This document shows positions 888 to 58,432 of a stretch of DNA of 64,000 nucleotides, one piece after another. Every line of letters starts with the position of its first letter. The first letter of the stretch is position 1. Source of the stretch: an uncultured Bacilli bacterium (GTDB taxonomy: Bacteria > Bacillota_I > Bacilli_A > RF39 > UBA660); contig CALVRZ010000001.1 in assembly GCA_944358875.1 (NCBI GenBank), positions 20,214 to 84,213 on the forward strand. Direction: 5' to 3'. A program made the translations under genes and the position numbers. The notes under the pieces are model-generated. The model had not been told where the DNA came from, did no database searches, and saw only the letters and a program-made list of their open reading frames with translations.

Positions 888-1937
888 ATGAGCTTTGTTG
901 AATTTTTGATGGAATATTATATCTATATATTGATCGTTTTAGTTTTAATGATTATTACTATTATTGGCTTTTTAGCTGATAAAAGGGACAAGAAGAAAAA
1001 GAAAAATAAGAAAGATGCTAGTGTAAGTGATAATGTTAGTGTTAATGCTAATACTAATGTAGGTGGAAATGTTTCTCAACCAATGGAGAATATTGCACCA
1101 ACACCATTACAACCGCAAAACTTAGATGTTAATATGAGTAATGCGAATATGAATACGGCAATAAATAGTAATGTTAATCCTAATATGGGAATGAATAGTG
1201 GTATTGCTAGTCAAAATATTCTGGAACAACCTTTAATTAGAGAAGAGGTACCTAATCAAGTAGCTAGCACGACTGATACTAATAGTGATGTTAATAGTTT
1301 AGGGTATAAGCCTTTAGATGAGCAGAAGCCTAAAATTGCTCCTAGACCAGTTGAAATACCTAGTGAGAATGCTATGGGTAATGTTGATAGTAATTTAGGA
1401 AACGTTGGTGTTACACCTAATGTTAATCCTACACCAACACCAGTAGCTCCTAATATGAATCAAACACCTGTGATGGAACAACCAACGATGAGTGTTAACC
1501 CTATACCAACGATTAATCAAACATTTAATTCTGGAGTTGGTACTGGTGTTACACCTTCAGTACAAAATCCACAAACACAGGCTAGCGTTAATACAATGCC
1601 TGCTACTAATCCGGTTCCTGGAGCACCCGTTGTTAATAGTTGGGATGTTAATCCAACACCAAGTGTTAATCCGACAGTGATTACACCAGAGCCAACGATG
1701 GGACAAACAGTAAGTCCTATGCCTAATACGAGTAATACGACTTCAACACCAATGCAACCTAATGTTAATCCAGTTCCTACTAATGTAGGAATCAACGTTA
1801 GTCAACCTGCTAGTCAAGTTACTGCAACACCACAACCTCAACAACAAGCTAGTGGAATGAATTTTGTATATGGTCAGGAAACACCGACAAATGCTAATAA
1901 TCAAGTGAATAATAATCAGGATTTATGGAAATTATAG
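888..1937 (+). CDS. Membrane-anchored low-complexity protein: N-terminal TM helix, Lys-rich linker, then Asn/Pro/Thr/Val/Gln-rich repeats (NVNP, NPTP motifs)
   Basis: Strong RBS (AGGAGG) 7 nt upstream. Hydrophobic segment at aa 10-30. Remainder is compositionally biased and repetitive. Confidence 0.45.
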   Translation: MSFVEFLMEYYIYILIVLVLMIITIIGFLADKRDKKKKKNKKDASVSDNVSVNANTNVGGNVSQPMENIAPTPLQPQNLDVNMSNANMNTAINSNVNPNMGMNSGIASQNILEQPLIREEVPNQVASTTDTNSDVNSLGYKPLDEQKPKIAPRPVEIPSENAMGNVDSNLGNVGVTPNVNPTPTPVAPNMNQTPVMEQPTMSVNPIPTINQTFNSGVGTGVTPSVQNPQTQASVNTMPATNPVPGAPVVNSWDVNPTPSVNPTVITPEPTMGQTVSPMPNTSNTTSTPMQPNVNPVPTNVGINVSQPASQVTATPQPQQQASGMNFVYGQETPTNANNQVNNNQDLWKL

Positions 1938-1984
1938 ATTTAGGTTTTTCCTAAATCTTTTATACCTATTAAGGAGGGATTACG

Positions 1985-2593
1985 ATGAATGACGAAGAAA
2001 TTATGAAACGCTTTAATGCATCTTTAGCGGAAGATAATAAGCAAACGCCAGTTACACCGTATCATGCTACCGGTAATCTTAATACGGCAATTGGTAATCC
2101 TAATATTAATGTTAATGATCCTATGAATGTTAATATTCAAAATGGTGGTTTAAATACTAATAATACTTCTTCAGCAGTACCACCAGTTGATTTGTTAAAA
2201 CCTGAAAGTCAAATTTCTAATGGAATGCCAGTAGGGGAACAACCATCAACTAATTTTAATAATAATTCTAATGTGGTACTTAATCTTAATCAACCATCTG
2301 TTGCGCCAAATATGAATGGTCAAGGAGAACAACAAAGTGCCTCACAGAATACCAATTATCAACCAGATGTGACCGAGCAATATATTCCTAATCAAGAATT
2401 ACAGGGTGACCAAGTATATAAAACGACAACTTATATTTCGACTCAACCATCAATGACGCAAAAGAAAAAGAAGACAGTGAAACTTACACTATCTCCTGAA
2501 ACAAAAATTGCAATGGTAATTGCTTTAATCTTATTTATTTTTATTATGGTAATGCCAACTATTTATGATTTTATTAGAAATATACGTTTTTAG
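1985..2593 (+). CDS. Asn/Pro-rich low-complexity protein with a C-terminal TM helix (tail-anchored topology), compositionally related to the preceding gene
   Basis: RBS AAGGAGGG. N/P/Q-rich body, KKKK stretch, hydrophobic C-terminus IAMVIALILFIFIMVMPTIY. Confidence 0.4.
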   Translation: MNDEEIMKRFNASLAEDNKQTPVTPYHATGNLNTAIGNPNINVNDPMNVNIQNGGLNTNNTSSAVPPVDLLKPESQISNGMPVGEQPSTNFNNNSNVVLNLNQPSVAPNMNGQGEQQSASQNTNYQPDVTEQYIPNQELQGDQVYKTTTYISTQPSMTQKKKKTVKLTLSPETKIAMVIALILFIFIMVMPTIYDFIRNIRF

Positions 2594-7649: not shown

Positions 7650-7814
7650 ATGAAAGTTAAAGTTTTTGATGAATCACATGAGAAAGATTTAGAAAATAGC
7701 ATTAATGAATTTATTGTTGAAAAGGAAATTATTGATATTAAATTTTCGGTTTCAACCTCGATATTTAGTGATGAACAAATTTATTGTTTTTCGGCTTTAA
7801 TTATGTATAAGTAG
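7650..7814 (+). CDS. Cse60/YteV-like small protein (54 aa); below the ORF-track length cutoff
   Basis: MKVKVFDESHEKDLENSINEFI...IDIKFSVS...EQIYCFSALIMYK matches the pattern VKxFDxxHEKDLExxxNxF...QIYCFSA that I recall for Cse60 (a sigma-E-controlled sporulation protein in Bacillus). Confidence 0.4.
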   Translation: MKVKVFDESHEKDLENSINEFIVEKEIIDIKFSVSTSIFSDEQIYCFSALIMYK

Positions 7815-7825
7815 GATGGTGGATT

Positions 7826-9565
7826 ATGAAAGAAAAAAGAGGGTTTACTTTAATTGAATTGCTAGCTGTTATATTAATTTTAGGTATTATAATGTCAATT
7901 AGTACTTATTTTATGTTTAATAGTAATAAGGATGCTGAAAATGAAGTTAATTATATTAATGAAAACGGTATTTTAAATTCTGCTTCTTTTTATACAACTG
8001 AATATAATAAAAATTTAATTTGGAATGAAGATGAGAATGCGGCTTGTATTTCAATAAATACACTTATCAATAGGGGGTATTTTGAACGAGATGATATTGT
8101 AGCTAGTGGATATGATAAATATAGTGTTAAAGTTACAGAAGTTGGCGATAAAGTATATAATTATGAATTAGTTAATGATATTTATTGTTATTTTAAAGAT
8201 TTTATTGATCCTACGATATCAATAGATGGTGATAATCCATTAATTAAAAATTATGGCGAAAGTTTTGACTTATGGAGCGATGTTACAGTTGATGGTACTG
8301 GTAGTGATGTTATTTCAAAATATATTTTAAATGGCGATAAGAGAATTAATAACACCAATGAACTTCAAGTTGGTGAATATGTTATTAATTATTATGTAAT
8401 GGATACTTTTGAAAATGAAGCAAAAATGGAAAGACAAGTACATATTATTGATAATGTTTCTCCTACGATTGATTTTGAGACACCAATAGTTAAAGCTTTA
8501 GGTGAAGATTTTGATTTGTGGAGTGATGTTACTGTCAAAGATTTAGAAAGTGGTATTGATAATAATTCAAAAAAAGTAATTAATAAGGATAACAATCAAG
8601 TAATTACTAATACTAAGGATTTAGAAATTGGTACATATAATTTTACTTATTCAGTAAGTGATAAAGTGGGGAATGAGGTTACTAAAGATAGACAGATTCA
8701 AATAATACTTTCTGATAAGAAGTTTGAGTATAAAGGATATGAAGAAGAATTTGTTGTTCCGGCGACAGGATATTATTTTGTGGATGCAAATGGGGCTGGT
8801 ACTAATATAGGCGGTGGCTTAGGTGGTAATGTTACTGGTTATATTTATTTACAACAAGGCGAAGTTTTAAAAATAAAAGTTGGAGGTACGAATGGTTATA
8901 ATGGTGGTGCTAAATCATCAAAGAGTGATGGAATGACAGGTGGTGGTGCAACAACGTTAACTAAAAATGGCAAAACTTTAATTACAGCAGCGGGAGCTGG
9001 TGGACCTACATATTCTTGTAAAACACCTTTATATAAAGTAGATAAACCAAATACTTTTAAATTTCCTGATGACAGTTATTGTTTTCCTTTCGATAAAGAT
9101 GCTAATCTAAATGGTGGTTTAGGTGATGGTTATGGTCCTGGAGGAAATGGTACAAATGGTGGTGGTGGCGCTGGTATTGCTGGTGATTTTGAGACATCTT
9201 GTTTGGGAGCTAATCCGCAATGCGAAGAATATGAACAAAAAATTTGTATTCAATGGGAAGAGGTTTGTGTTGATATACCTGCTTATTGTGTACAGTGGAG
9301 TCCTTTGGGTTACTGTAAAAGATATACTAAGCCTCAGCATATTTGTTACGAGGGCGGTGATTGTGTTAAATGGAATATTATAGAGAGCGTTCGTAATTGT
9401 CAATTTGAATATTATATGTGTACAGCATCAGCAGTTGGTGAACCAGGTAGAGGTGGCAAAAGTAGTGTTTCTAGTGAGGTTATTAATGTTAACTATATTC
9501 ATGGTGAATCAGAAAATTATTATAATGGTGATTTGACAATTAAATATGTAGGTGAGAGTCTATGA
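7826..9565 (+). CDS. Prepilin-type N-terminal cleavage/methylation-domain protein (type IV pilin-like) with two Ig-like repeats (DUF5011-like, DFDLWSDVTV motif) and a Gly-rich then Cys-rich C-terminal region
   Basis: KRGFTLIELLAVILILGIIMSI class-III prepilin motif. Two ~70-aa repeats. GGGLGGN...GGNGTNGGGGAGIAG followed by 12 Cys in ~110 aa. Confidence 0.6.
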   Translation: MKEKRGFTLIELLAVILILGIIMSISTYFMFNSNKDAENEVNYINENGILNSASFYTTEYNKNLIWNEDENAACISINTLINRGYFERDDIVASGYDKYSVKVTEVGDKVYNYELVNDIYCYFKDFIDPTISIDGDNPLIKNYGESFDLWSDVTVDGTGSDVISKYILNGDKRINNTNELQVGEYVINYYVMDTFENEAKMERQVHIIDNVSPTIDFETPIVKALGEDFDLWSDVTVKDLESGIDNNSKKVINKDNNQVITNTKDLEIGTYNFTYSVSDKVGNEVTKDRQIQIILSDKKFEYKGYEEEFVVPATGYYFVDANGAGTNIGGGLGGNVTGYIYLQQGEVLKIKVGGTNGYNGGAKSSKSDGMTGGGATTLTKNGKTLITAAGAGGPTYSCKTPLYKVDKPNTFKFPDDSYCFPFDKDANLNGGLGDGYGPGGNGTNGGGGAGIAGDFETSCLGANPQCEEYEQKICIQWEEVCVDIPAYCVQWSPLGYCKRYTKPQHICYEGGDCVKWNIIESVRNCQFEYYMCTASAVGEPGRGGKSSVSSEVINVNYIHGESENYYNGDLTIKYVGESL

Positions 9566-10218
9566 AAAGAAAAATAGCATATGTTATATTATTTATTTTA
9601 ATTATAATGGTAATCAGTATTATTTGTTTTGTTATGTTTTATCCTAAAGAAAAATTAGAAAATAATAAAACTGTTACTTCTTCAGAAATGATTCAGTATT
9701 TAGAAAGCAGTATGTATATGTATGGTGATTATTTAATTAATGATACTAATTATTTAGATCAATTTAATGTATCTAGGGAATATCATGTATATTTAGAAGA
9801 AATGTTAAATAGTGATAAATTTGATCAACAACCTTTAGAATTTTTAGAATGTGATTATAGTAATACTTATTTAAATATTATTATTAATTTGGAGAATGAT
9901 GATATATCATTAGATGCTATTACTGATTGTTTAGTTAATCAAGACCAATATGGAGTGTTTTATAATAGGCAAAAATTAGAAGATAAATTATTAGAATATG
10001 GTAAGGATATAGCTTCTTATTATGATACAACAGATATGGATGATAGTGCCACTATTGAAATTAATTTAGAACAATTACGGGATGTTTATAATCGTGATAT
10101 TTCAATGTTTATGGAAAATTATGACCTGAAAGAAACTAAAGTTTTGATTTCTTTTAACGAAGATACTAGTGGTTATAGTAATGATTATAAATGTGTTTTA
10201 ACTAAGAAAAATGATTGA
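9562..10218 (+). CDS. Membrane protein (single N-terminal TM) translationally coupled (ATGA overlap) to the pilin-like gene
   Basis: Hydrophobic N-terminus IAYVILFILIIMVISIICFVMF. The stop codon lies inside the 62-bp direct repeat. Confidence 0.45.
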   Translation: MKRKIAYVILFILIIMVISIICFVMFYPKEKLENNKTVTSSEMIQYLESSMYMYGDYLINDTNYLDQFNVSREYHVYLEEMLNSDKFDQQPLEFLECDYSNTYLNIIINLENDDISLDAITDCLVNQDQYGVFYNRQKLEDKLLEYGKDIASYYDTTDMDDSATIEINLEQLRDVYNRDISMFMENYDLKETKVLISFNEDTSGYSNDYKCVLTKKND

Positions 10219-10244
10219 CAATATACTTAATTTTATTATATAAT
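10183..10244. repeat. 62-bp perfect direct repeat, left copy, flanking the IS (target-site duplication)
   Basis: GATTATAAATGTGTTTTAACTAAGAAAAATGATTGACAATATACTTAATTTTATTATATAAT is identical at 12251-12312. It contains TTGACA-N18-TATAAT. Confidence 0.85.
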
Positions 10245-12250
10245 CTCAAATTTGACAGTTGTATAAAGTTAAAAACTCACAAACCCTTTATTTATAAGGG
10301 AATGCGAGTTTTTTTGAATTTAGAAAAATGGCGTACATAATTCTTATTTATTTCATATCTAAAATTTCTTTAATTTTTTTGTAAGTTATTATCTCAGTAT
10401 CAGTATTTATGCCTAAAAAATCATGTAAAGCATCTGTTAAATCATCTCTTGTTTGTATTGGTTCAAATCCTTTTCCATTGTGCTCTAATAATTTCATTTC
10501 TTGTAATTTTGATATTATTTCATTTACAGTATATTTATCATCCAATTGATGTTCTAGATATCTATAGATAAATAATGCTAAGAAGCAAGTAATAAAATGT
10601 CCTTTTATTCTATCTTCGCGTGATAAATGAACTGTCCCAGAATCAAAGTCATCTTTCATAATTCTAAATGATTCTTCAATTTCCCATCTACCATTCATAA
10701 CTTTTATAATTGTTGCAGTATCATCAATTAAATTAGTTGTTATTCCGTATAAACCATTATATTTTTCTTCATTTTTATAAATTTCTTCATCTATGATATA
10801 TTCTATATTACAGGCGATTTCTCCAGCATCGGTTGTTTTAATTTCTTTAATAAATCTTTTAGGATCATTAGGATTTTTACTTATTTTTATTTTTTCAACA
10901 TCTTTTTTCTTTGCTATTTTTTTATTTTTCTTATTAGTTTCTTCAACTAGTTTTCTGGCACGCTCTAATTGATGTAATTTTAAATTGTACTGGTAGACTT
11001 GATATTTAAAAGAAAAAGTTACTATTAAAGTTTGCATTACTGATGCTGTTTCACATTCAATTTCTTTATAAAATATGGTGTTAAAATATTTCTTTTTTAA
11101 TTGTTCGTCTTTTTCAATTTCATCAAGATTATAAACATTCATAAGGTTTCCTAAGATTCGCCATCCTTTTCTATCTAAAGCAAATTCTTGTAATTTATTA
11201 TTTAATTTTTTTATAGATTGAGTAATTACAAAACCACGACCATCTTTGACATTAAATTTTTTAATTTCATCGGTACACATGGCTGCATCAGTACATACAA
11301 TTATGTTACTACCAGCCATGTTATAATTTTTTAAAAACTCTTCCTCAGTAGGAATCATGGTCTTAGTTTCAGAAGTATTTCCAGGATTAATATTCATAGC
11401 AAAAGGATAGCCATCAGCATCCATAAATAATCCCATTTGTACAAGTGGATTAGGTTGATGTTGTTTACTTATTCCATACCTTTGAAAATCATTTTCTTCA
11501 GTGTAGAAAAAATAGTTTGTACAATCATAATAAATAACCTTGTAATTTCTATCGATGACTTTACTACTATTGTCAAATAGTTCTTTTTGAATAGTATTTA
11601 TTTCATGTGATAAATAGGTTAATGTTCTATAAACATGTTGAAGATCAAAGTCATAATTTCCTATAAATTTTCTTGATTGTTCAAATGTTGAAAGTTTAGA
11701 AGAAGGCCATATGATACGAGCATATAGTAAGCATTCAACAACTGCATTTATATCAAATGTAAATTTATATTTATCTTTAATATTTTTACATATTTTATCA
11801 ATACCTAGATCATAATAAATTTTTCTTAAGAAAAAATGTCCAGAATAGAAGCAACGATTTATATTTTTTTCTATTTGTTTATTAGGATTTAAAGTTAAAT
11901 TAACGGGTAATTCTTTTCCATCTTTTATCATCTGATTTAAAGAGTTGATATACTCTTTGACTTTATCCATAGTATTTTCAGTACCAAATCTTTCTTTTAA
12001 GTTTTGGTCATTACCTAAGTTTTCATAAACATAAGTAGATTTTTTTCCATTAAGTTTTTTATAATCAGCAATTATGGCATAGTTATTATTGCTTTTTGTT
12101 GATACAGTTTTGAGTCTCATAAGTGTGGTACCTCCTTACATTATATTAATATTATATCATGTACGGCTTATGTACGCAAGAGTAAAATTAAAAAAAACTA
12201 GGATTTATAAGGCCTAGAACACAATTTTTTATTACAAGTGTCAAAGATGG
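10245..12250 (-). mobile_element. IS1634-family insertion sequence (~2.0 kb) with imperfect terminal inverted repeats (AAATTTGACAGTTGTATAAA / reverse complement ATCTTTGACACTTGTAATAAA)
   Basis: Single long DDE-type transposase ORF. Inverted termini read by eye (~16/21). Immediately bounded by a 62-bp direct repeat. Long variable target duplications are a known property of IS1634. Confidence 0.65.
10348..12120 (-). CDS. IS1634-family transposase
   Basis: N-terminus MRLKTVSTKSNNNYAIIADYKKLNGKKSTYVYENLG follows the IS1634-family pattern (K-x-NG-x-YYxI-x-SY...LG). ~590 aa with DDE-like acidic residues. Confidence 0.6.
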   Translation of the reverse strand: MRLKTVSTKSNNNYAIIADYKKLNGKKSTYVYENLGNDQNLKERFGTENTMDKVKEYINSLNQMIKDGKELPVNLTLNPNKQIEKNINRCFYSGHFFLRKIYYDLGIDKICKNIKDKYKFTFDINAVVECLLYARIIWPSSKLSTFEQSRKFIGNYDFDLQHVYRTLTYLSHEINTIQKELFDNSSKVIDRNYKVIYYDCTNYFFYTEENDFQRYGISKQHQPNPLVQMGLFMDADGYPFAMNINPGNTSETKTMIPTEEEFLKNYNMAGSNIIVCTDAAMCTDEIKKFNVKDGRGFVITQSIKKLNNKLQEFALDRKGWRILGNLMNVYNLDEIEKDEQLKKKYFNTIFYKEIECETASVMQTLIVTFSFKYQVYQYNLKLHQLERARKLVEETNKKNKKIAKKKDVEKIKISKNPNDPKRFIKEIKTTDAGEIACNIEYIIDEEIYKNEEKYNGLYGITTNLIDDTATIIKVMNGRWEIEESFRIMKDDFDSGTVHLSREDRIKGHFITCFLALFIYRYLEHQLDDKYTVNEIISKLQEMKLLEHNGKGFEPIQTRDDLTDALHDFLGINTDTEIITYKKIKEILDMK

Positions 12251-12312
12251 GATTATAAATGTGTTTTAACTAAGAAAAATGATTGACAATATACTTAATT
12301 TTATTATATAAT
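12251..12312. repeat. 62-bp direct repeat, right copy (target-site duplication)
   Basis: Identical to 10183-10244. Confidence 0.85.
12283..12312 (+). promoter_or_regulatory. Sigma-A-type promoter TTGACA-N18-TATAAT within the right repeat copy, positioned to drive the flp-like gene and feoAB
   Basis: Consensus hexamers. A duplicate sits at 10215-10244 just before the IS. Confidence 0.5.
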
Positions 12313-12337
12313 TGTTTATATAAGTAGGAGGCTTGTA

Positions 12338-12559
12338 ATGATGAGATTGAATAATAAAGGGCAGACTTTAGTTGAATATGTATTGATTATTTCTTTGATT
12401 ACGGTTTTGGCTATTGCTTTAGTTAAGATATTTGGAGGTTATTTGAAGGATTCTGTTACTAAAATGGGTTGTTCAATTGCCGGCAAAGAATATGTTGAGG
12501 GAGAAAAAATTGGTGAAGCTTATTGTTCAGGAGACGAAGATAAGTTGTTTAGTGATTAG
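12338..12559 (+). CDS. Flp/Fap-family pilin-like small protein (class III signal peptide, G/QTLVEY motif)
   Basis: MMRLNNKGQTLVEYVLIISLITVLAIALVKIFG resembles Flp prepilins (G-[AT]-x-x-IEY-[GA]-L-I). RBS AGGAGG. Confidence 0.45.
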   Translation: MMRLNNKGQTLVEYVLIISLITVLAIALVKIFGGYLKDSVTKMGCSIAGKEYVEGEKIGEAYCSGDEDKLFSD

Positions 12560-18918: not shown

Positions 18919-18995
18919 GATAATTGTAGAAATTTTTGTTATTATTTGTTATAATATAGTTGAATGTACATAGGAGTGTTAAAGAGGGTGTTAGA

Positions 18996-21533
18996 ATGAA
19001 GAAGATTTATTACTTTTGGGCTTTATTATTATTTGTAATATTTAGTGGTAATGTTAAGGCATTAAATGCAACTGTTGATGTTGATGATGCTTTATATTTA
19101 AGAAAAGAACCTAGTAGTTATTCAGCTAATTTGACAGCGATTCCTGGAGGGACGAAACTAAATGGTGTTGTTATGACCAGTACGAAAGGTAATGGTTGTA
19201 CTGGTAATTGGTATTCGGTTACTTATGGAGGTCAAAGTGGTTATGTATGTGGAGATTATCTACAAATTGATAGTACTAGTAGTAATGATACGGGAAAAGT
19301 TGCTTGTTTTGAAAATGATGATCCTTTAAATATATGGACAGATGTTAATAAATCAGGACGTTTGAAACAACTTAGTTGTGATACCGAACTTAATATTTTA
19401 GAAAGAAATGTGGCAAGTAATAGTCTATGTAGTAATTGGTACAAAGTTGAACATGGTGGAACAGTAGGTTATGCTTGTGGTACTTATATTTATAATGATG
19501 ATGATAATACTGGTGGAAATAATGATACTAATGTAGGTAAGAGTACAACCGGGGATAACATTTATGAGAAAAATAATTATAGTAGCCCTGTCAATGGTGA
19601 TGGAACAGTTGCCTGCTACGAAGATACGGGAGATCTTTCTTTAAGAAGTTCGGCAGGGGGAGCTGCTAATGGATATAAGATTAGTTGTGGTACACCAGTT
19701 AAAATTAATTTTGTAAGAGAAACAAGTGGGACATGTAAATACTACTATAATATTACTAATAAATTAAATAATCAGTCTGGTTATGTATGTGGTTATTATA
19801 TAAATACAACTAAATTATCTAGTACAGCAGAGAATTACTATAAAAATAATGAGGATTTAGATGATTATTATGATAGCTTAAGAGCTAAAGGATTTCCTGA
19901 TAGTTATTTACCTTATTTAGCTGAAATTCATGCAAGACATCCTAATTGGATTTTTAATGCGGAAAAAATTAATTTGGATTTTGACGATGTTGTCTTTTAT
20001 GAATCTTTTGATGGAAGAAGTTTATTACAGGGTAGTGCTTTTGATGTTAATTATTTTTCTATGGATTTGAATACTTATGATATTTTAAATGATAAGTTTT
20101 ATGATTATGATACGGAAAATGGTTGGTATAATGCCTCAACTGAAGCTATTGCTTTTTACTTAGATCCAAGAAATTATTTGAATGAAAAATATATTTTTGC
20201 ATTTGAAAGTTTACTTTATAATGCATCACATGATGAAAGTATGGTATCTAAAATTATGAGTAATATGAACTTCTGGACTGATGTCTATAAAGGTTATTCT
20301 AGTACGATATATGCTGATGTTATTAAAGCTAGTAAAGATGTTGATATTAGTGCTATTCATGTAGCTAGTCGTATTAAACAAGAGATTAGTGGTATTTCTA
20401 CTAGTGATCCTAGATTAGGGGGAGTGTTTACTTATAATAATAAGAAATATTCTGGATATTATAATTTTTTTAACATTAATGTTTATGGTGATAATAAAAT
20501 CGTAAATGGTATGGTATATGCAATGAATAATGATTGGGATACTCCATATAAAGCTGTTCTTGGTGGTAGTAGTTTTATCAGAGGCAATTATATTGGAGTT
20601 AATCAAGATACAGTTTATTATGAAAAATTTGATGTTTCTACTACTGATGGTCATTATACGCATCAATATCAACAGAATTTAGCTGTAGCAATGCAAGAGA
20701 CTAATTCAACATTTAATAGTTATGTTAGCTTAGATAATTATTTTGATCAGAATCTTGTCTTTACTATTCCTGTCTACAATAATATGAGTACATATGCTGT
20801 TACTTCTCCTAGTTTAGGTAATCCTAATAATTATTTAAAGGATTTGAAAGTTAATGGTACGACTGTGAGTGGTTTTAGTTACAGTGATTATGAGTATGAT
20901 ATTACATTACCAGCAGGAACAAAGAGTATTAATGTTACTGCGACAAAGATTAATAATAATGCTAGTATAAGTGGCGATGGCAATATTACTATTGATAGTG
21001 ATAAGAAAACAGTTAATATTGTGGTAACAGCGCAAAATGGTCGAACAAGAACTTATACTTTAAATATTACAAGAACACAGGCTAGTGAAGATGAGATTAT
21101 CGATATTGATGTTATTATGAATAATACAGGAATAAAATATAATGGTGATTATATTTATGGTATTTATGAGAGTACTAATATTAATAGTTTGATTAATAAT
21201 GTTGAGAAGATTAGTGAGTTTGCTAGTGCCAGTATTAAAGATAAAGATGGTAATGCTAAGAATAATGGTATCTTTAAAACAGGTGATGTAGTTACTATTA
21301 GTAATTCTAAAGAAAGTGCTAGTTATACAGTTGTTATCTATGGCGATGCTAATGGAGATGGTGCGATTGAAAGCTTAGATTATTTAGCAATACTTCGTCA
21401 TATGTATAATTATGATAGATTAGAGGGAGTATATGCAAGTGCTGCGGATGCTAATCATGATGGTGATATTAATGAGCTTGATTATTTGGCTGTTTTAAGA
21501 GATTACTATGGCTATGCTAAAATTGTTCAGTAA
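18996..21533 (+). CDS. Secreted multidomain surface protein: signal peptide, three SH3b repeats, central putative cell-wall glycoside-hydrolase-like domain, cadherin-like beta-sandwich domain, C-terminal type I dockerin
   Basis: NWY(S/K)V...GYVCG SH3b motifs three times. Cadherin-like LKDLKVNG...YDITLP...TYTLNITR. Dockerin GDANGDGAIESLDYLAILRH...ADANHDGDINELDYLAVLRDYY. Start moved to the MKKIYYFWALLLF signal peptide with RBS AGAGGG. Confidence 0.6.
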   Translation: MKKIYYFWALLLFVIFSGNVKALNATVDVDDALYLRKEPSSYSANLTAIPGGTKLNGVVMTSTKGNGCTGNWYSVTYGGQSGYVCGDYLQIDSTSSNDTGKVACFENDDPLNIWTDVNKSGRLKQLSCDTELNILERNVASNSLCSNWYKVEHGGTVGYACGTYIYNDDDNTGGNNDTNVGKSTTGDNIYEKNNYSSPVNGDGTVACYEDTGDLSLRSSAGGAANGYKISCGTPVKINFVRETSGTCKYYYNITNKLNNQSGYVCGYYINTTKLSSTAENYYKNNEDLDDYYDSLRAKGFPDSYLPYLAEIHARHPNWIFNAEKINLDFDDVVFYESFDGRSLLQGSAFDVNYFSMDLNTYDILNDKFYDYDTENGWYNASTEAIAFYLDPRNYLNEKYIFAFESLLYNASHDESMVSKIMSNMNFWTDVYKGYSSTIYADVIKASKDVDISAIHVASRIKQEISGISTSDPRLGGVFTYNNKKYSGYYNFFNINVYGDNKIVNGMVYAMNNDWDTPYKAVLGGSSFIRGNYIGVNQDTVYYEKFDVSTTDGHYTHQYQQNLAVAMQETNSTFNSYVSLDNYFDQNLVFTIPVYNNMSTYAVTSPSLGNPNNYLKDLKVNGTTVSGFSYSDYEYDITLPAGTKSINVTATKINNNASISGDGNITIDSDKKTVNIVVTAQNGRTRTYTLNITRTQASEDEIIDIDVIMNNTGIKYNGDYIYGIYESTNINSLINNVEKISEFASASIKDKDGNAKNNGIFKTGDVVTISNSKESASYTVVIYGDANGDGAIESLDYLAILRHMYNYDRLEGVYASAADANHDGDINELDYLAVLRDYYGYAKIVQ

Positions 21534-21545
21534 GGAGGAAAAAGA

Positions 21546-22865
21546 ATGAAATGTGTTGGTAATATAAAATTGGTGATATTTGGAATATTTTGTTTCATAG
21601 CTTTTAATTTTAATGTAAATGCTACTAGTAGTGTTAGCCTTAAGGCTAGTGCTACATCTGTTACAGTAGGTGATACAATTACTATAACTACAACTTTTAG
21701 TTCTGATGTTGGTCTTGTTTGGACTAAGGCTTCTGTTGAATGCCGAGGCGCAGGGGTTAAAGAGTCAGGTAAAAGTATTGATAAGGCTTTAACAAATGAT
21801 AAGACTTATCAAGAAAGCTATAAAATTAGACCTACTTCTTCTGGTACTATTACTTGTACGGTTTCAAGTGCAAAGATTCTTGATATGAATAGCGATCAAA
21901 ATTTAGGTAATGATGCATGGATTAATTTATCTAATAAGTCATTAACTATTCAAGTTAAAGAACCTGTTGTTATTACTCCTCAAGAGTATTCTTCAAATAA
22001 TTATTTAGAGAATTTGAGCATTGATGGTTTTGAATTAAGTCCAGAATTTGATAAAGAAACTTTAGAATATAGTGTCGAAGTTCCTAATGATACTGAGAAA
22101 GTTATTATCAATGCTAAAAAGGAAGATAGTACAGCATCAGTGAGTGGATCTGGAGAAGTTAGTGTCAGTGAAGGAGCTAATAAGATTGAAGTTAAAGTAA
22201 CGGCACAAAATGGTAATGAGAGAATATATGTCATTAATGTTAATGTTGAAGAGTTAGATCCTATTAAGGTAACGATCGATGATAAAGAGTATACCATTAT
22301 TCGAAAAAATGATGTTTTAGAACCACCTCAAGGTTATGAAGAGACAACGGTTATGATTGATGGTGAAGAGGTTTTAGCTTATACAAATGATCAAACTAAA
22401 TATACTTTAGTTGGCTTAAAAGATGAGGAAGGAAATAGTGCTTGGTATATTTATGATGAAGAAAAAGATACTTATACCCCTTATGTTTTTTATAATTTCA
22501 ATGGGGTTAGTTTGATCACCCTCGATATGCCTAAAAATTTAATACCAGATGGTTTTGTTAAATCTTCATTTGAATATAATGATGAGAGAGTCGAAGGATA
22601 TAAATATAAGAGTAATAGCCAGTTTTACTTAATTTATGGTATGAATAGTGAAACAGGAGAAAAAGGTCTTTATATGTTCGATAAGAAAGAGGGAACAGTT
22701 CAAAGATTTAATGATGAAATTGCTGATATTTATAAAGATAAAGCGGATTTATATTTTATGATATTAATGATTGTTTCAGGAATCGTGGGTGTTGCTATTG
22801 TCGCTACGGCGGTTGTCTTAATTGTAAGAACTAAGAAACGAAAGAAGAATAAAATTAAATTTTAA
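21546..22865 (+). CDS. Cell-surface protein: signal peptide, N-terminal beta-rich domain, cadherin-like beta-sandwich domain, C-terminal TM anchor with basic tail
   Basis: NYLENLSIDGFELSPEFDKETLEYSVEVP...IYVINVNV, and C-terminal ILMIVSGIVGVAIVATAVVLIVRTKKRKK. Confidence 0.5.
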   Translation: MKCVGNIKLVIFGIFCFIAFNFNVNATSSVSLKASATSVTVGDTITITTTFSSDVGLVWTKASVECRGAGVKESGKSIDKALTNDKTYQESYKIRPTSSGTITCTVSSAKILDMNSDQNLGNDAWINLSNKSLTIQVKEPVVITPQEYSSNNYLENLSIDGFELSPEFDKETLEYSVEVPNDTEKVIINAKKEDSTASVSGSGEVSVSEGANKIEVKVTAQNGNERIYVINVNVEELDPIKVTIDDKEYTIIRKNDVLEPPQGYEETTVMIDGEEVLAYTNDQTKYTLVGLKDEEGNSAWYIYDEEKDTYTPYVFYNFNGVSLITLDMPKNLIPDGFVKSSFEYNDERVEGYKYKSNSQFYLIYGMNSETGEKGLYMFDKKEGTVQRFNDEIADIYKDKADLYFMILMIVSGIVGVAIVATAVVLIVRTKKRKKNKIKF

Positions 22866-35575: not shown

Positions 35576-35594
35576 TATAATACATTTAAAGCGT

Positions 35595-35785
35595 TTGATG
35601 AAGGAGTAGTAGTAATCTTCTTAATTTTAGAGAGTAAGTGGATGGTGGGAACTTATATTAAGAGATTATGAACTTGCCTTTGGAGTGTCTTTAGACCGGG
35701 TAATGCCGTTATACGTAAGTAAGTAATAAGGTAGGATGGTACCGCGTAAGAAACGCTCCTAGAATAGGGGTGTTTTTATTTGGAA
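35595..35785 (+). promoter_or_regulatory. T-box-like leader (tRNA-sensing riboswitch) upstream of leuS
   Basis: Conserved T-box-like element GGATGGTACCGCG at 35734-35746, a stem I-like AGAGAG...GGTGGGAAC region, and a terminator-like stem with T-run at 35750-35780. Possible Leu specifier CUU in GAACUUGCC. Confidence 0.5.
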
Positions 35786-57793: not shown

Positions 57794-58198
57794 ATGAATA
57801 GGAAAGGTTTTACTTTAATTGAATTATTGGGTGTTTTAGTTATAATATCTGTTATTATGTTAATTGGGGTTTCTATTATTGGTAATAGTTTAGCTTTGAA
57901 TAAGGAAGAAGCATACAAGATTATGAAAAATAATGTTGCTAATGCTGCTTTAACTTATGTTAAGGAATGTGAAGGAAATTTGATTAATTGTGATAATGAG
58001 TATGAATGGCAAAATGATAATGATGGGGAAGTTGCTATTGTTAGAGCTTATAATTTACTTAATCATGGTTATTTTAGAGGAGATAGTTTACTTAGTCCTA
58101 TAGATAATAGTGATGTAAGTAATTGTATGGTTGTTTATGTTTATAGAGATAGTAATATGGTGTTGTCACCAAGAGTTGATGATAGTGATTGTAATTAA
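57794..58198 (+). CDS. Prepilin-type N-terminal cleavage/methylation-domain protein (short pilin-like, 134 aa), paralog of the N-terminal domain of the 579-aa protein
   Basis: RKGFTLIELLGVLVIISVIMLIGVSI. Shared NHGYFRGD / NRGYFERDD motif with the gene at 7826. Confidence 0.6.
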   Translation: MNRKGFTLIELLGVLVIISVIMLIGVSIIGNSLALNKEEAYKIMKNNVANAALTYVKECEGNLINCDNEYEWQNDNDGEVAIVRAYNLLNHGYFRGDSLLSPIDNSDVSNCMVVYVYRDSNMVLSPRVDDSDCN

Positions 58199-58231: not shown

Positions 58232-58432
58232 TTAATAAAATGGAACTGGTGGGTAAGGATATGGATATGGTGGATAGGGTCTTGGGTAGAAGGCGGGTGC
58301 TAATAAACCTCCGGTTATTCCTCCTAGAATAAAGGGTCCTAGAAAACCACCTCCAATGAACCGATTACCATTATTTATACCAGGTCGTGGACGAGGACGA
58401 AATGATGGGTTCATAGGCCTATTATTATACAT
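58232..58432 (-). CDS. Small Pro/Tyr/Gly-rich protein (66 aa, ...YPRPYPPYPYPYPPVPFY)
   Basis: RBS GAAAGGAG on the minus strand. Composition resembles spore-coat-like or structural low-complexity proteins. Convergent with the pilin-like gene across a hairpin. Confidence 0.35.
   Translation of the reverse strand: MYNNRPMNPSFRPRPRPGINNGNRFIGGGFLGPFILGGITGGLLAPAFYPRPYPPYPYPYPPVPFY

What the first reader, a model, noticed from the sequence alone, without database searches (positions are those of the whole stretch)
7826..10218. Orphan prepilin-type giant pilin-like protein (579 aa) with Ig-like repeats and a Gly-rich/Cys-rich tail, coupled to a membrane protein; short paralog at 57794-58198
Both proteins begin with a canonical type IV prepilin leader, cleavage site and hydrophobic helix (K/RGFTLIELL). 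They share a downstream NxGYFxxD motif, so they are paralogous pilin domains. No pilus assembly ATPase, platform or prepilin peptidase gene lies nearby. The large one adds two DUF5011-type Ig repeats, a poly-Gly segment (GGNGTNGGGGAGIAG) and a 12-Cys module (CEEYEQKICIQWEEVCVDIPAYCVQWSPLGYCKRYTKPQHICYEGGDCVKWN). That is unusual for competence or pseudopilin-type proteins and suggests an adhesin-like tip pilin or a non-pilus use of the prepilin leader. An flp-like (type IVb) pilin gene sits just beyond the IS, again without tad genes in view.
Basis: partly seen in the sequence, partly recalled or inferred. Interest (0 to 1): 0.6.

Follow-up and report, generated by a model that had tools for sequence, protein, structure and literature searches.

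The report
Modular pilin with ALK-like glycine-rich head
An uncultured human-gut Firmicute encodes a pilin-type surface protein whose tip is a bacterial relative of the ligand-binding domain of the human ALK receptor, carries a cysteine-rich finger that varies between strains, and always comes with a small membrane-tethered partner protein.

Summary
ORF 7826-9565 (579 aa) has a bona fide prepilin-type leader (MKEKRG|FTLIE), a small pilin head and two Ig-like domains. The short paralog at 57794-58198 shares the pilin head.

The overlapping 218-aa membrane protein belongs to an unnamed family. This family sits next to every mid-size Cys-insert GRD gene I found, whether that gene has a prepilin or a Sec signal. 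So the partner goes with the GRD head, not with pilus assembly.

Between near-clonal strains only the distal GRD diverges, down to 49% nucleotide identity.

No pilus ATPase, platform or peptidase gene lies within about 84 kb. The rest of the genome could not be searched.

The Flp-like gene is a separate unit with its own consensus promoter. An IS1634-family insertion split it from the cassette.

Best reading: a modular type IV pilin-like adhesin with a hypervariable GRD finger and a dedicated partner. It is a new variant of a known kind. The pilin+PF12810 architecture is listed in a published table but has not been studied.

The parts
7826..7843 (+). Class III (prepilin) leader peptide MKEKRG. 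The predicted cleavage site follows Gly6.
   Evidence: N_methyl and TIGR02532 score above their cut-offs. G6 is invariant in 15 homologues.
7844..8191 (+). Pilin module (aa 7-122): F+1 and E+5, a hydrophobic alpha1-N helix, then a small alpha/beta head with conserved Cys74 and Cys121.
   Evidence: The AlphaFold model has helices 9-38 and 46-63 and strands between 72 and 116. The module is 34% identical to the short pilin. The two Cys are invariant in A3.
8192..8710 (+). Two Ig-like (PF16403/DUF5011-type) domains, aa 123-211 and 212-295, which I read as a stalk.
8711..9190 (+). Glycine-rich domain core and variable loop (aa 296-455), including GGNGTNGGGG and the Cys398/Cys419 pair.
9191..9445 (+). 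Inserted long beta-hairpin 'finger' (aa 456-540) with 10 Cys. It is hypervariable between strains.
   Evidence: AlphaFold strands 456-484 and 504-537 have pLDDT 76-84. The mirror-symmetric Cys positions give nested sums of 985-991. Amino-acid identity is 41%, and nucleotide identity falls to 49%, against a strain whose flanks are 99-100% identical.
9446..9565 (+). Closing strands of the GRD (aa 541-579, ...NGDLTIKYVGESL) and the stop codon.
   Evidence: This aligns with the GNGxxxIxY C-terminus of PF12810-positive relatives.
9562..10218 (+). Partner gene: a 218-aa bitopic membrane protein (N-in, ectodomain out) with invariant Cys97 and Cys123. Its start overlaps the upstream stop codon as ATGA.
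   Evidence: Searches show the ORF and overlap. It is 32% identical (E 3e-25) to the 213-aa partner of distant homologues. It is related to the lipoproteins that sit next to Sec-type GRD genes. No Pfam or NCBIfam family matches it.
7650..7814 (+). cse60 homologue that ends 11 nt before the pilin start codon. Co-transcription is possible. This adjacency is specific to this species.
   Evidence: Pfam Spore_Cse60 scores 76.4 bits. The sequence is shown.
10245..12250 (-). IS1634-family insertion (2,006 bp; transposase ORF 10348-12120) flanked by a 62-bp target duplication at 10183-10244 and 12251-12312.
   Evidence: NCBIfam transpos_IS1634 scores 312 bits. The repeat was computed. The element is absent from the syntenic strain L008.
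12283..12559 (+). Flp-like small pilin gene (12338-12559, 73 aa) with its own 12/12 consensus sigma-70 promoter (12283-12312). It is a separate unit and not part of the conserved cassette.
   Evidence: Searches cover the gene and promoter. No such ORF follows the partner in L002.
57794..58198 (+). Short orphan type IV pilin paralogue (134 aa, 4 Cys).
   Evidence: establish the pilin features. Its homologues are likewise scattered among housekeeping genes.

Best explanation
The 579-aa protein is a modular type IV pilin-like surface protein.

**Shown (by sequence or model)**
- A class III signal peptide and a small pilin module are followed by two Ig-like spacer domains.
- The head is an ALK/LTK-type glycine-rich domain.
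- A roughly 85-residue beta-hairpin is inserted into that head.

**Inferred**
- A prepilin peptidase encoded elsewhere cleaves after Gly6.
- The hydrophobic alpha1 helix then holds the protein in the membrane. From there it is either loaded onto the tip of a type IV filament (Com-type or T4P, encoded elsewhere) or stays anchored.
- The Ig stalk pushes the GRD head and its finger outwards.
- The finger is probably stapled by five cross-strand disulfides.
- The head acts as a ligand-binding (adhesin) surface. Its loop 396-455 and its finger are diversified between strains.
- The co-translated 218-aa partner is a membrane-tethered extracytoplasmic accessory of the GRD head, not of pilus assembly. 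It most likely acts as a folding or oxidation helper, or as a docking protein.
For: **Leader and pilin head**
- Both leader models score above their curated cut-offs.
- GFTLIE is invariant in 15 homologues whose overall column identity is 25%.
- The pilin head is shared with a classical short pilin.
- The model has mean pLDDT 82.5, with an N-terminal helix followed by a sheet.

**GRD head**
- The family profile hits SCD-2 at E 3.6e-9.
- PF12810 matches 17 of 24 aligned relatives.

**Hairpin**
- AlphaFold predicts strands 456-484 and 504-537.
- Across 13 family members the insert Cys counts are even (6, 10, 12, 14 or 20). In 11 of them the nested position sums stay within 7 units.
- Seven members were compared with random placement. 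A spread that small arises in 0.3-8% of random placements.

**Hypervariability**
- Against L175, flanking genes and the first 720 nt are 99-100% identical, while the distal GRD falls to 49%.
- Against L008, the loop has 22 nonsynonymous and 4 synonymous changes.
- The same distal drop appears in a second lineage, L002 against L138.

**Partner**
- The 4-nt overlap with the pilin gene is shown.
- The partner is conserved at 32% identity.
- Reciprocal HMM hits link it to the lipoproteins next to Sec-type GRD genes: E 3e-9 and 1.4e-5 among 6,123 ORF segments.
- A partner-family ORF lies next to nearly every 500-690-aa Cys-insert GRD gene whose flanking DNA was available, in 17 loci counting the window.

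**Precedent**
- Modular pilins present adhesion modules on filaments (PMC8179133). That paper's dataset lists IPR012902-PF12810.
Against: - No prepilin peptidase, assembly ATPase or platform gene lies within about 84 kb. Their presence in the genome is untested.
- In every relative examined, the large and small pilin genes lie among housekeeping genes, never in a pilus operon.
- The window protein itself does not reach Pfam PF12810 at E <= 0.1. Its membership rests on transitive homology and on a predicted structure.
- The same GRD+partner pair also works with ordinary Sec signals, so a filament is not needed for the head to function.
- Ligand binding is inferred only from ALK and phage analogues. 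No ligand is known.
- The disulfide ladder is inferred, not observed, and the host is an anaerobe.
- The partner's role is unknown. Its model was unusable at pLDDT 48.5.
Confidence: 0.55

Rival explanations
1. Non-filament use of the prepilin leader. The protein is never polymerised. The alpha1 helix, cleaved or not, serves only as a membrane anchor. The Ig-Ig-GRD-finger rod projects through the wall as a cell-bound adhesin or receptor, held or matured by the partner.
For: - The large and small pilin genes are orphan in every context seen.
- Sec-exported GRD relatives use the same partner family as lipoproteins. This suggests a membrane-proximal complex that needs no filament.
- Several large pilin-led proteins cluster without pilus genes in L006.
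Against: - Strict conservation of G-1, F+1 and E+5 is what prepilin peptidase and filament assembly require. A plain anchor would tolerate change at these positions.
- A classical short pilin with the same head exists in the same genome. That implies a filament built from such heads.
Confidence: 0.25
2. Polymorphic effector plus immunity pair. The conserved N-terminal export and stalk part delivers a variable C-terminal GRD/finger that harms competitors' envelopes. The downstream tethered protein protects the producer.
For: - The N-terminus is conserved and the C-terminus hypervariable, in a clonal background.
- A small gene follows immediately and overlaps.
- Arrays carry surplus partner copies: two GRD genes with four partners in L033, one with two in L145, two with three in L149.
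- The partner diverges to 83% amino-acid identity where the flanks are 99-100% identical.
Against: - There is no toxin or enzyme domain. The variable part is a binding-type fold shared with receptor ectodomains and phage fibres.
- In the second lineage the finger drops to 37-67% nucleotide identity while the partner stays at the background level of 86-95%, so tight co-variation is not seen.
- In L008 the loop differs while the partner is identical.
Confidence: 0.12
3. The N-terminus is only a generic signal-anchor or Sec signal that resembles a prepilin leader by chance.
For: No peptidase or assembly genes are in view.
Against: - Two curated leader models score above their cut-offs.
- The six-residue motif is invariant across distant homologues.
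- Homology to a short pilin extends 70 residues beyond the helix.
- About a quarter of the GRD-core relatives listed carry the same leader.
Confidence: 0.03

Closest known systems
Modular type IV pilins (S. sanguinis PilB with a vWA module and PilC with a lectin module; Raynaud et al. 2021, PMC8179133)
   Same: - A short pilin module carries a class III signal peptide.
- Non-pilus binding modules are grafted onto its C-terminus.
- The host is a monoderm.
- The architecture IPR012902-PF12810 is listed in that paper's Dataset S1, with 2 proteins plus 1 carrying three copies.
   Different: - PilB and PilC lie inside the pil operon and have been shown on filaments. This gene is orphan.
- The module here is Ig-Ig-GRD with a Cys-laddered finger.
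- It has a dedicated non-pilin partner gene.
- Nothing has been shown experimentally.
ALK/LTK glycine-rich domain (Pfam PF12810; PDB 7lrz, 7nx3, 7ls0, 7lir)
   Same: - The sequence motifs match: FxVPxxGxY, GAxGG, VGGxNGYNGGG, GGGAT, and a closing GNGxxxIxY strand.
   Different: - This is a bacterial protein on a pilin anchor, not on a receptor kinase.
- It is shorter.
- It carries an 85-residue Cys-rich hairpin insert.
- The Pfam model does not score this particular sequence.
- Its ligand is unknown.
Phage receptor-binding and fibre proteins with glycine-rich folds (cyanophage Pam3 fibre 7ypx, Bxb1 gp33 9d93; S16 gp38 as described in PMC13243192)
   Same: - They share a glycine-rich fold at the distal, host-recognising end of an elongated appendage.
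- They are hypervariable.
- Such proteins often come with an adjacent accessory gene (this last point is from my own knowledge of fibre and chaperone pairs).
   Different: - There is no phage context in the window.
Com pseudopilus minor pilins (ComGD/E/F/G) and T2SS pseudopilins
   Same: The N-terminal 25-50 residues match these models.
   Different: - All scores are far below the family cut-offs, for example ComGD at 16 bits against 70.
- The match covers only the leader and helix.
- There is no comG operon nearby.

Membership tests
Type IV pilin / class III signal peptide protein (PF07963, TIGR02532) | A short basic leader ending in Gly, then Phe/Met at +1, Glu at +5 and about 20 hydrophobic residues | tested here: met
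   The sequence reads MKEKRG|FTLIELLAVILILGIIMSI. It scores 30.0 bits (cut-off 21.2) and 30.7 bits (cut-off 16.3). The motif is invariant in 15 homologues.
Type IV pilin / class III signal peptide protein (PF07963, TIGR02532) | Pilin fold: a long N-terminal helix packed on an antiparallel sheet, often with a C-terminal disulfide | tested here: met
   This rests on a predicted model only. It has helices 9-38 and 46-63 and strands between 72 and 116. Cys74 and Cys121 are invariant in the close family.
Type IV pilin / class III signal peptide protein (PF07963, TIGR02532) | Cleavage and N-methylation by an A24 prepilin peptidase | not testable with these tools
   No GspO/PilD-like ORF lies in the window or within 10 kb beyond each end. 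The species is not among the GTDB representatives searched.
Type IV pilin / class III signal peptide protein (PF07963, TIGR02532) | Gene linked to, or dependent on, T4F assembly genes (ATPase, platform) | tested here: not met
   No GspE- or GspF-like ORF was found in about 84 kb or in the 10 kb either side of homologues. Dependence on unlinked genes was not tested.
Modular pilin (sensu Raynaud et al. 2021) | An N-terminal IPR012902 pilin module plus at least one extra domain that is not specific to T4P biology | tested here: met
   The protein combines N_methyl, two PF16403 domains and a GRD. The definition is taken from PMC8179133.
ALK/LTK glycine-rich domain (PF12810) | A match to the Pfam model at its gathering score | tested here: not met
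   The window protein has no hit at E <= 0.1. However, 17 of 24 aligned relatives match, the best at 1.1e-31, and homologues P0005, P0011, P0016, P0017 and P0019 carry the domain.
ALK/LTK glycine-rich domain (PF12810) | The GRD three-dimensional fold | tested here: met
   [not shown]
ALK/LTK glycine-rich domain (PF12810) | Packed polyglycine-II helices | not testable with these tools
   The Gly-rich segments are non-helix and non-strand in DSSP, which is compatible.
Flp/Fap pilin (PF04964), for ORF 12338-12559 | A Pfam match at the gathering score and the G/xxxxEY processing motif | tested here: inconclusive
   The motif KG|QTLVEY is present. The score is 21.0 bits against a cut-off of 32.2, and Class_IIIsignal scores 20.1 against 23.7.
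Polymorphic toxin-immunity pair | A recognisable C-terminal toxin domain | tested here: not met
   Only the leader, Ig-like domains and the GRD were detected.
Polymorphic toxin-immunity pair | The downstream gene co-varies with the variable C-terminus | tested here: inconclusive
   In window vs L175 the partner falls to 83% amino-acid identity in a 99-100% background. In L002 vs L138 the partner stays at background identity while the finger is at 37-67%.

The most novel reading that the evidence does not exclude
Gut Firmicutes carry a previously undescribed two-component surface module. It consists of a hypervariable, disulfide-laddered 'finger' mounted on a bacterial homologue of the ALK/LTK ligand-binding domain, plus a cognate membrane-tethered partner. 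The module can be attached to interchangeable export and anchoring devices: a prepilin leader, a Sec signal, a TM anchor or a lipobox. On this reading it is a strain-specific recognition system, for cell-cell, phage-decoy or antagonistic interactions, rather than a conventional pilus adhesin. It would also mark the prokaryotic source of the metazoan GRD.
Probability: 0.3. Interest if true: 0.75.

Novelty: new variant of a known kind. Interest (0 to 1): 0.6.

Why it matters
- **Evolution of the ALK/LTK domain.** The ALK/LTK glycine-rich domain is a rare fold, solved in 2021. Close bacterial relatives at 30% identity, sitting on pilin anchors, give a tractable prokaryotic model of the fold and a lead on its origin.
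- **A testable two-gene unit.** The conserved GRD-partner pair, the mirror-symmetric cysteine ladder and the strain-level hypervariability together define a concrete unit in abundant, uncultured human-gut bacteria. It can be tested for binding specificity, folding and antigenic variation.
- **Scattered pilin genes.** In this lineage prepilin-type proteins are spread across the chromosome away from any machinery. This bears on how widely class III signal peptides are used outside classical pilus operons.

Tried and rejected
1. **Genome search for relatives.** With A3, 236 pattern matches gave no confirmed relative. So the species is not in the GTDB representatives, and no genome could be searched for pilD, pilB or comG.
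2. **Motif scan.** Most titles were from unrelated, largely G+C-rich lineages. Seven ORFs matched the GRD profile, and the three loci with strong full-domain hits (L027, L033, L068) were the ones used.
3. **Partner structure.** The only alignment allowed had three sequences of 86-100% identity. The model had pLDDT 48.5 and was unusable, so no fold search was run on it.
4. **Partner as a degenerate pilin.** I rejected this idea: hhalign gave probability 3.5% against the pilin-module profile.
5. **Flp-like gene as part of the cassette.** I rejected this too. The gene is absent downstream of the partner in L002, and it has its own 12/12 promoter.
6. **Families for the partner and related lipoproteins.** Pfam and NCBIfam gave nothing above noise.
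7. **Word-index search for the partner.** It found only homologues of 86% identity or more.
8. **AlphaFold database.** The afdb50 fold library was unavailable.
9. **Viral fold search.** It was dominated by Ig-like hits. GRD-annotated phage proteins appeared only at E of about 3e-5.
10. **Taxonomy.** The look-up of "Clostridium sp. CAG:302" failed. Placement rests only on a shared 90%-identity FtsZ cluster.
11. **Literature.** I found no study of bacterial GRDs or pilin-GRD proteins. The search for polymorphic toxins together with prepilin listed four titles; I read none of them, and none concerns pilin-GRD proteins.
12. **Partner and finger co-variation.** It was seen in one lineage and not in the other, so I make no claim.
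Full report
**Setting**

The window has 28% G+C and is a housekeeping stretch of a Firmicute chromosome. It carries ezrA, uppS, eno, feoAB, ftsA/ftsZ, rpsB/tsf, leuS, proS, rnr and smpB. Its proteins occur on an NCBI/ENA contig of 85,847 bp. Its FtsZ falls in the same 90%-identity cluster as that of the uncultured human-gut "Clostridium sp. CAG:302". Homologues of the finding come from human-gut metagenomes, including Hadza samples.

**Checking the observation**

- ORF 7826-9565 (579 aa) starts MKEKRG|FTLIELLAVILILGIIMSI. It passes Pfam N_methyl (30.0 bits, cut-off 21.2) and NCBIfam TIGR02532 (30.7 bits, cut-off 16.3). It also carries two stretches of PF16403, the former DUF5011.
- A Shine-Dalgarno-like GGTGG precedes the start codon. 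The next ORF (9562-10218, 218 aa) begins inside the stop codon as ATGA.
- The short ORF 57794-58198 (134 aa) also passes N_methyl. It aligns with the large protein over 99 residues at 34% identity, E 1e-12. That is well beyond the hydrophobic helix and includes the shared L..GYF motif.
- These are the only two GFTLIE-type ORFs in the window.
One detail is off: the 12 cysteines belong to the whole C-terminal domain, and the quoted 52-aa string holds only 7.

**What the C-terminal half is**

- The closest full-length homologues (39-45% identity) have the same architecture. More distant ones carry Pfam PF12810, now named ALK_LTK_GRD.
- An AlphaFold model built on 15 homologues has mean pLDDT 82.5. 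Its parts are an N-terminal helix (9-63), a small sheet (72-116), two beta-sandwiches (130-208 and 214-294), and a C-terminal domain (297-579). The C-terminal domain contains a very long hairpin, with strands 456-484 and 504-537.
- At sequence level, a profile of 24 aligned domains hits SCD-2 at E 3.6e-9, and 17 of the 24 match PF12810. The window protein alone does not match PF12810, so its membership is transitive plus structural.
- The poly-Gly segment and the Cys module are thus parts of one GRD with an insert.

**The finger**

- Ten cysteines lie at positions 459, 466, 474, 481 and 488, then 497, 507, 513, 525 and 532. Pairing them from the outside in gives position sums of 991, 991, 987, 988 and 985. 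That is what an antiparallel hairpin with cross-strand disulfides predicts.
- The mirror symmetry recurs in very different inserts of relatives with 6, 10, 12 and 20 cysteines. Examples are P0077 (20 Cys, sums 1005-1010) and P0005 (12 Cys, sums 1117-1124). Two of the 13 members checked, P0025 and P0031, show a wider spread.
- For seven members compared with random placement, a spread that tight arises in 0.3-8% of trials.
- I take the ladder as well supported but inferred. It has not been observed.

**How common the architecture is**

- A full HMMER scan of 1.84 billion representatives with aa 296-579 found only three clusters that match the whole domain. It found 83 that match the GRD core.
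- Of the proteins listed, about a quarter start with a prepilin leader. Others have Sec signals or are surface proteins of about 1,400 aa.
- Raynaud et al. 2021 define "modular pilins" as a pilin module plus a grafted functional module. They count more than 1,200 proteins in 264 architectures. Their Dataset S1 lists IPR012902-PF12810.
- The kind is therefore known and this combination is catalogued. I found no study of it.

**The partner**

- The 218-aa protein has an N-in transmembrane helix and an ectodomain with two invariant cysteines. Distant homologues of the pilin carry an overlapping 213-aa counterpart that is 32% identical, E 3e-25.
- It has no Pfam or NCBIfam family. It is not pilin-like: hhalign gives probability 3.5%.
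- Sec-signal GRD genes in Clostridium sp. CAG:524 (L033) and in an uncultured Clostridium (L068) are flanked by small lipoproteins. An HMM of these lipoproteins hits the 213-aa partners at E 3e-9 among 6,123 ORF segments. The partner HMM hits back at E 1.4e-5. The profile-profile comparison gives E 5e-5 with probability 67%.
- I then surveyed 36 metagenome loci fetched with the GRD core. A partner-family ORF lay next to nearly every 500-690-aa Cys-insert GRD gene whose flanking DNA was available. This held for pilin-led genes (the window, L001-L005, L008, L014, L138-L141) and for Sec-led genes (L033, L068, L143, L144, L145, L149, often with two partners per GRD gene). The exceptions were L159, which has none, and L007 and L027, where the contig ends too close to tell.
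- The giant GRD proteins had no convincing partner hit, only two marginal matches to much longer ORFs. The Cys-poor GRD proteins had none.
- The partner therefore belongs to the GRD head, whatever the export route.

**Strain variation**

- Against strain L175, enolase is 397/398 identical and the upstream lipoprotein is 163/165. Nucleotides 7826-8540 of the pilin gene are 99-100% identical. Identity then falls steadily to 49% across the GRD core, loop and finger. It recovers to 82-97% in the partner gene.
- Against L008, the differences sit in aa 212-455, with 22 nonsynonymous and 4 synonymous changes in loop 396-455. The finger and the partner are identical.
- A second lineage (L002 against L138) shows the same distal drop, to 37-67% in a background of 85-93%. 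There the partner stays at background level.
- The distal head is therefore a reproducible hotspot of diversification. Partner co-variation is not established.

**Pilus machinery**

- phmmer with E. coli GspE, GspF and GspO found nothing in the window, in the 10 kb beyond each end, or around the homologues.
- Relatives of the small pilin also lie among housekeeping genes, next to lspA, udg and rpoZ.
- Only L145 has a GspE-like ATPase (E 1e-38) and a short pilin beside a Sec-type GRD.
- The species was not found among 185,579 GTDB representatives, so the genome-wide test could not be run.
- The invariance of G-1, F+1 and E+5 across divergent homologues is indirect evidence that a prepilin peptidase acts on these proteins.

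**Neighbours**

- The IS1634-family element (10245-12250) is flanked by a 62-bp duplication. It is absent from the syntenic strain L008, where the Flp-like gene follows the partner after 51 nt.
- The duplicated segment contains a 12/12 TTGACA-18-TATAAT promoter that sits on the partner's stop codon.
- No Flp-like ORF follows the partner in the distant homologues.
- The Flp-like gene is therefore its own unit. Its family scores are below threshold.

**Mechanism**

- Shown: the domain order, the GRD fold (by model), the conserved gene pair and the hypervariable head.
- Inferred: cleavage by an unlinked prepilin peptidase; anchoring or filament-tip display through alpha1; outward presentation of a rigid, disulfide-braced binding finger; and a helper or docking role for the partner.
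- I give 0.55 to the modular-pilin adhesin reading, 0.25 to a non-filament anchored variant, 0.12 to an effector-immunity pair and 0.03 to a chance leader.

**Verdict**

This is a new variant of a known kind (a modular pilin) with two features I could not find described: the Cys-laddered finger inserted in a bacterial ALK-type GRD, and the GRD-partner cassette. Interest 0.6.

Noticed in passing
window 10183-12312: An IS1634-family element of 2,006 bp has an unusually long 62-bp target-site duplication. The duplication copies the 3' end of the partner gene and a perfect sigma-70 promoter. The insertion is present in another sample (L014) but absent from strain L008.
   Followed up: yes
window 12283-12559: A 73-aa Flp-like protein (KG|QTLVEY, 2 Cys) sits behind a 12/12 consensus promoter and a strong RBS. 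The exact sequence was seen on 135 contigs. No tad genes are in view.
   Followed up: partly
window 7650-7814: A Cse60 sporulation-protein homologue (76 bits) ends 11 nt before the pilin start codon. This hints at co-transcription with a sporulation gene. The adjacency is not conserved in the 39-45% homologues.
   Followed up: no
window 18960-22865: Two large secreted proteins lie side by side. One has SH3-like repeats and a C-terminal dockerin. The other has a cadherin-like domain and a C-terminal TM anchor. The same pair lies beside ftsA/ftsZ in a relative (L013).
   Followed up: no
window 58232-58432 (-): A 66-aa ORF rich in Pro, Gly and Tyr (…RPRPRPG…GGGFLGPFILGG…YPRPYPPYPYPYPPVPFY) lies directly downstream of the short pilin on the opposite strand. 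It is also called as a gene in L016.
   Followed up: no
window 888-2593: Two adjacent low-complexity proteins rich in Asn, Pro, Thr and Val (349 and 202 aa) follow ezrA. One has an N-terminal TM segment and the other a C-terminal one. Neither matches a family.
   Followed up: no
window 35585-35763: A T-box leader (93.5 bits, just at the gathering score) lies upstream of a small membrane ORF and leuS.
   Followed up: no
L033 (Clostridium sp. CAG:524), L143, L144, L149: These loci hold tandem arrays of Sec-signal, Cys-rich GRD genes interleaved with one or two partner-family lipoprotein genes each. In L033 there are two GRD genes and four lipoprotein genes.
   Followed up: partly
L145 2-1039: A GspE/PilB-like ATPase (E 1e-38, at the contig edge) and a 140-aa pilin lie directly upstream of a Sec-type GRD protein (691 aa, 51 Cys) with two partner genes.
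   Followed up: no
L027 (minus strand): A pilin-led GRD gene is followed by a 116-aa TadE-like protein (MNKKGQALIEFILILP…).
   Followed up: no
L006 166-15565: Three large pilin-led proteins lie within 15 kb with no pilus genes: 927 aa (Ig-like), 890 aa (two GRDs) and at least 389 aa (GRD).
   Followed up: no
P0027, P0026, P0058: Some GRD inserts are expanded into dozens of short repeats of about 9-10 residues (…CGC.TYKSC.NS.…). These suggest much longer disulfide-braced spikes.
   Followed up: no
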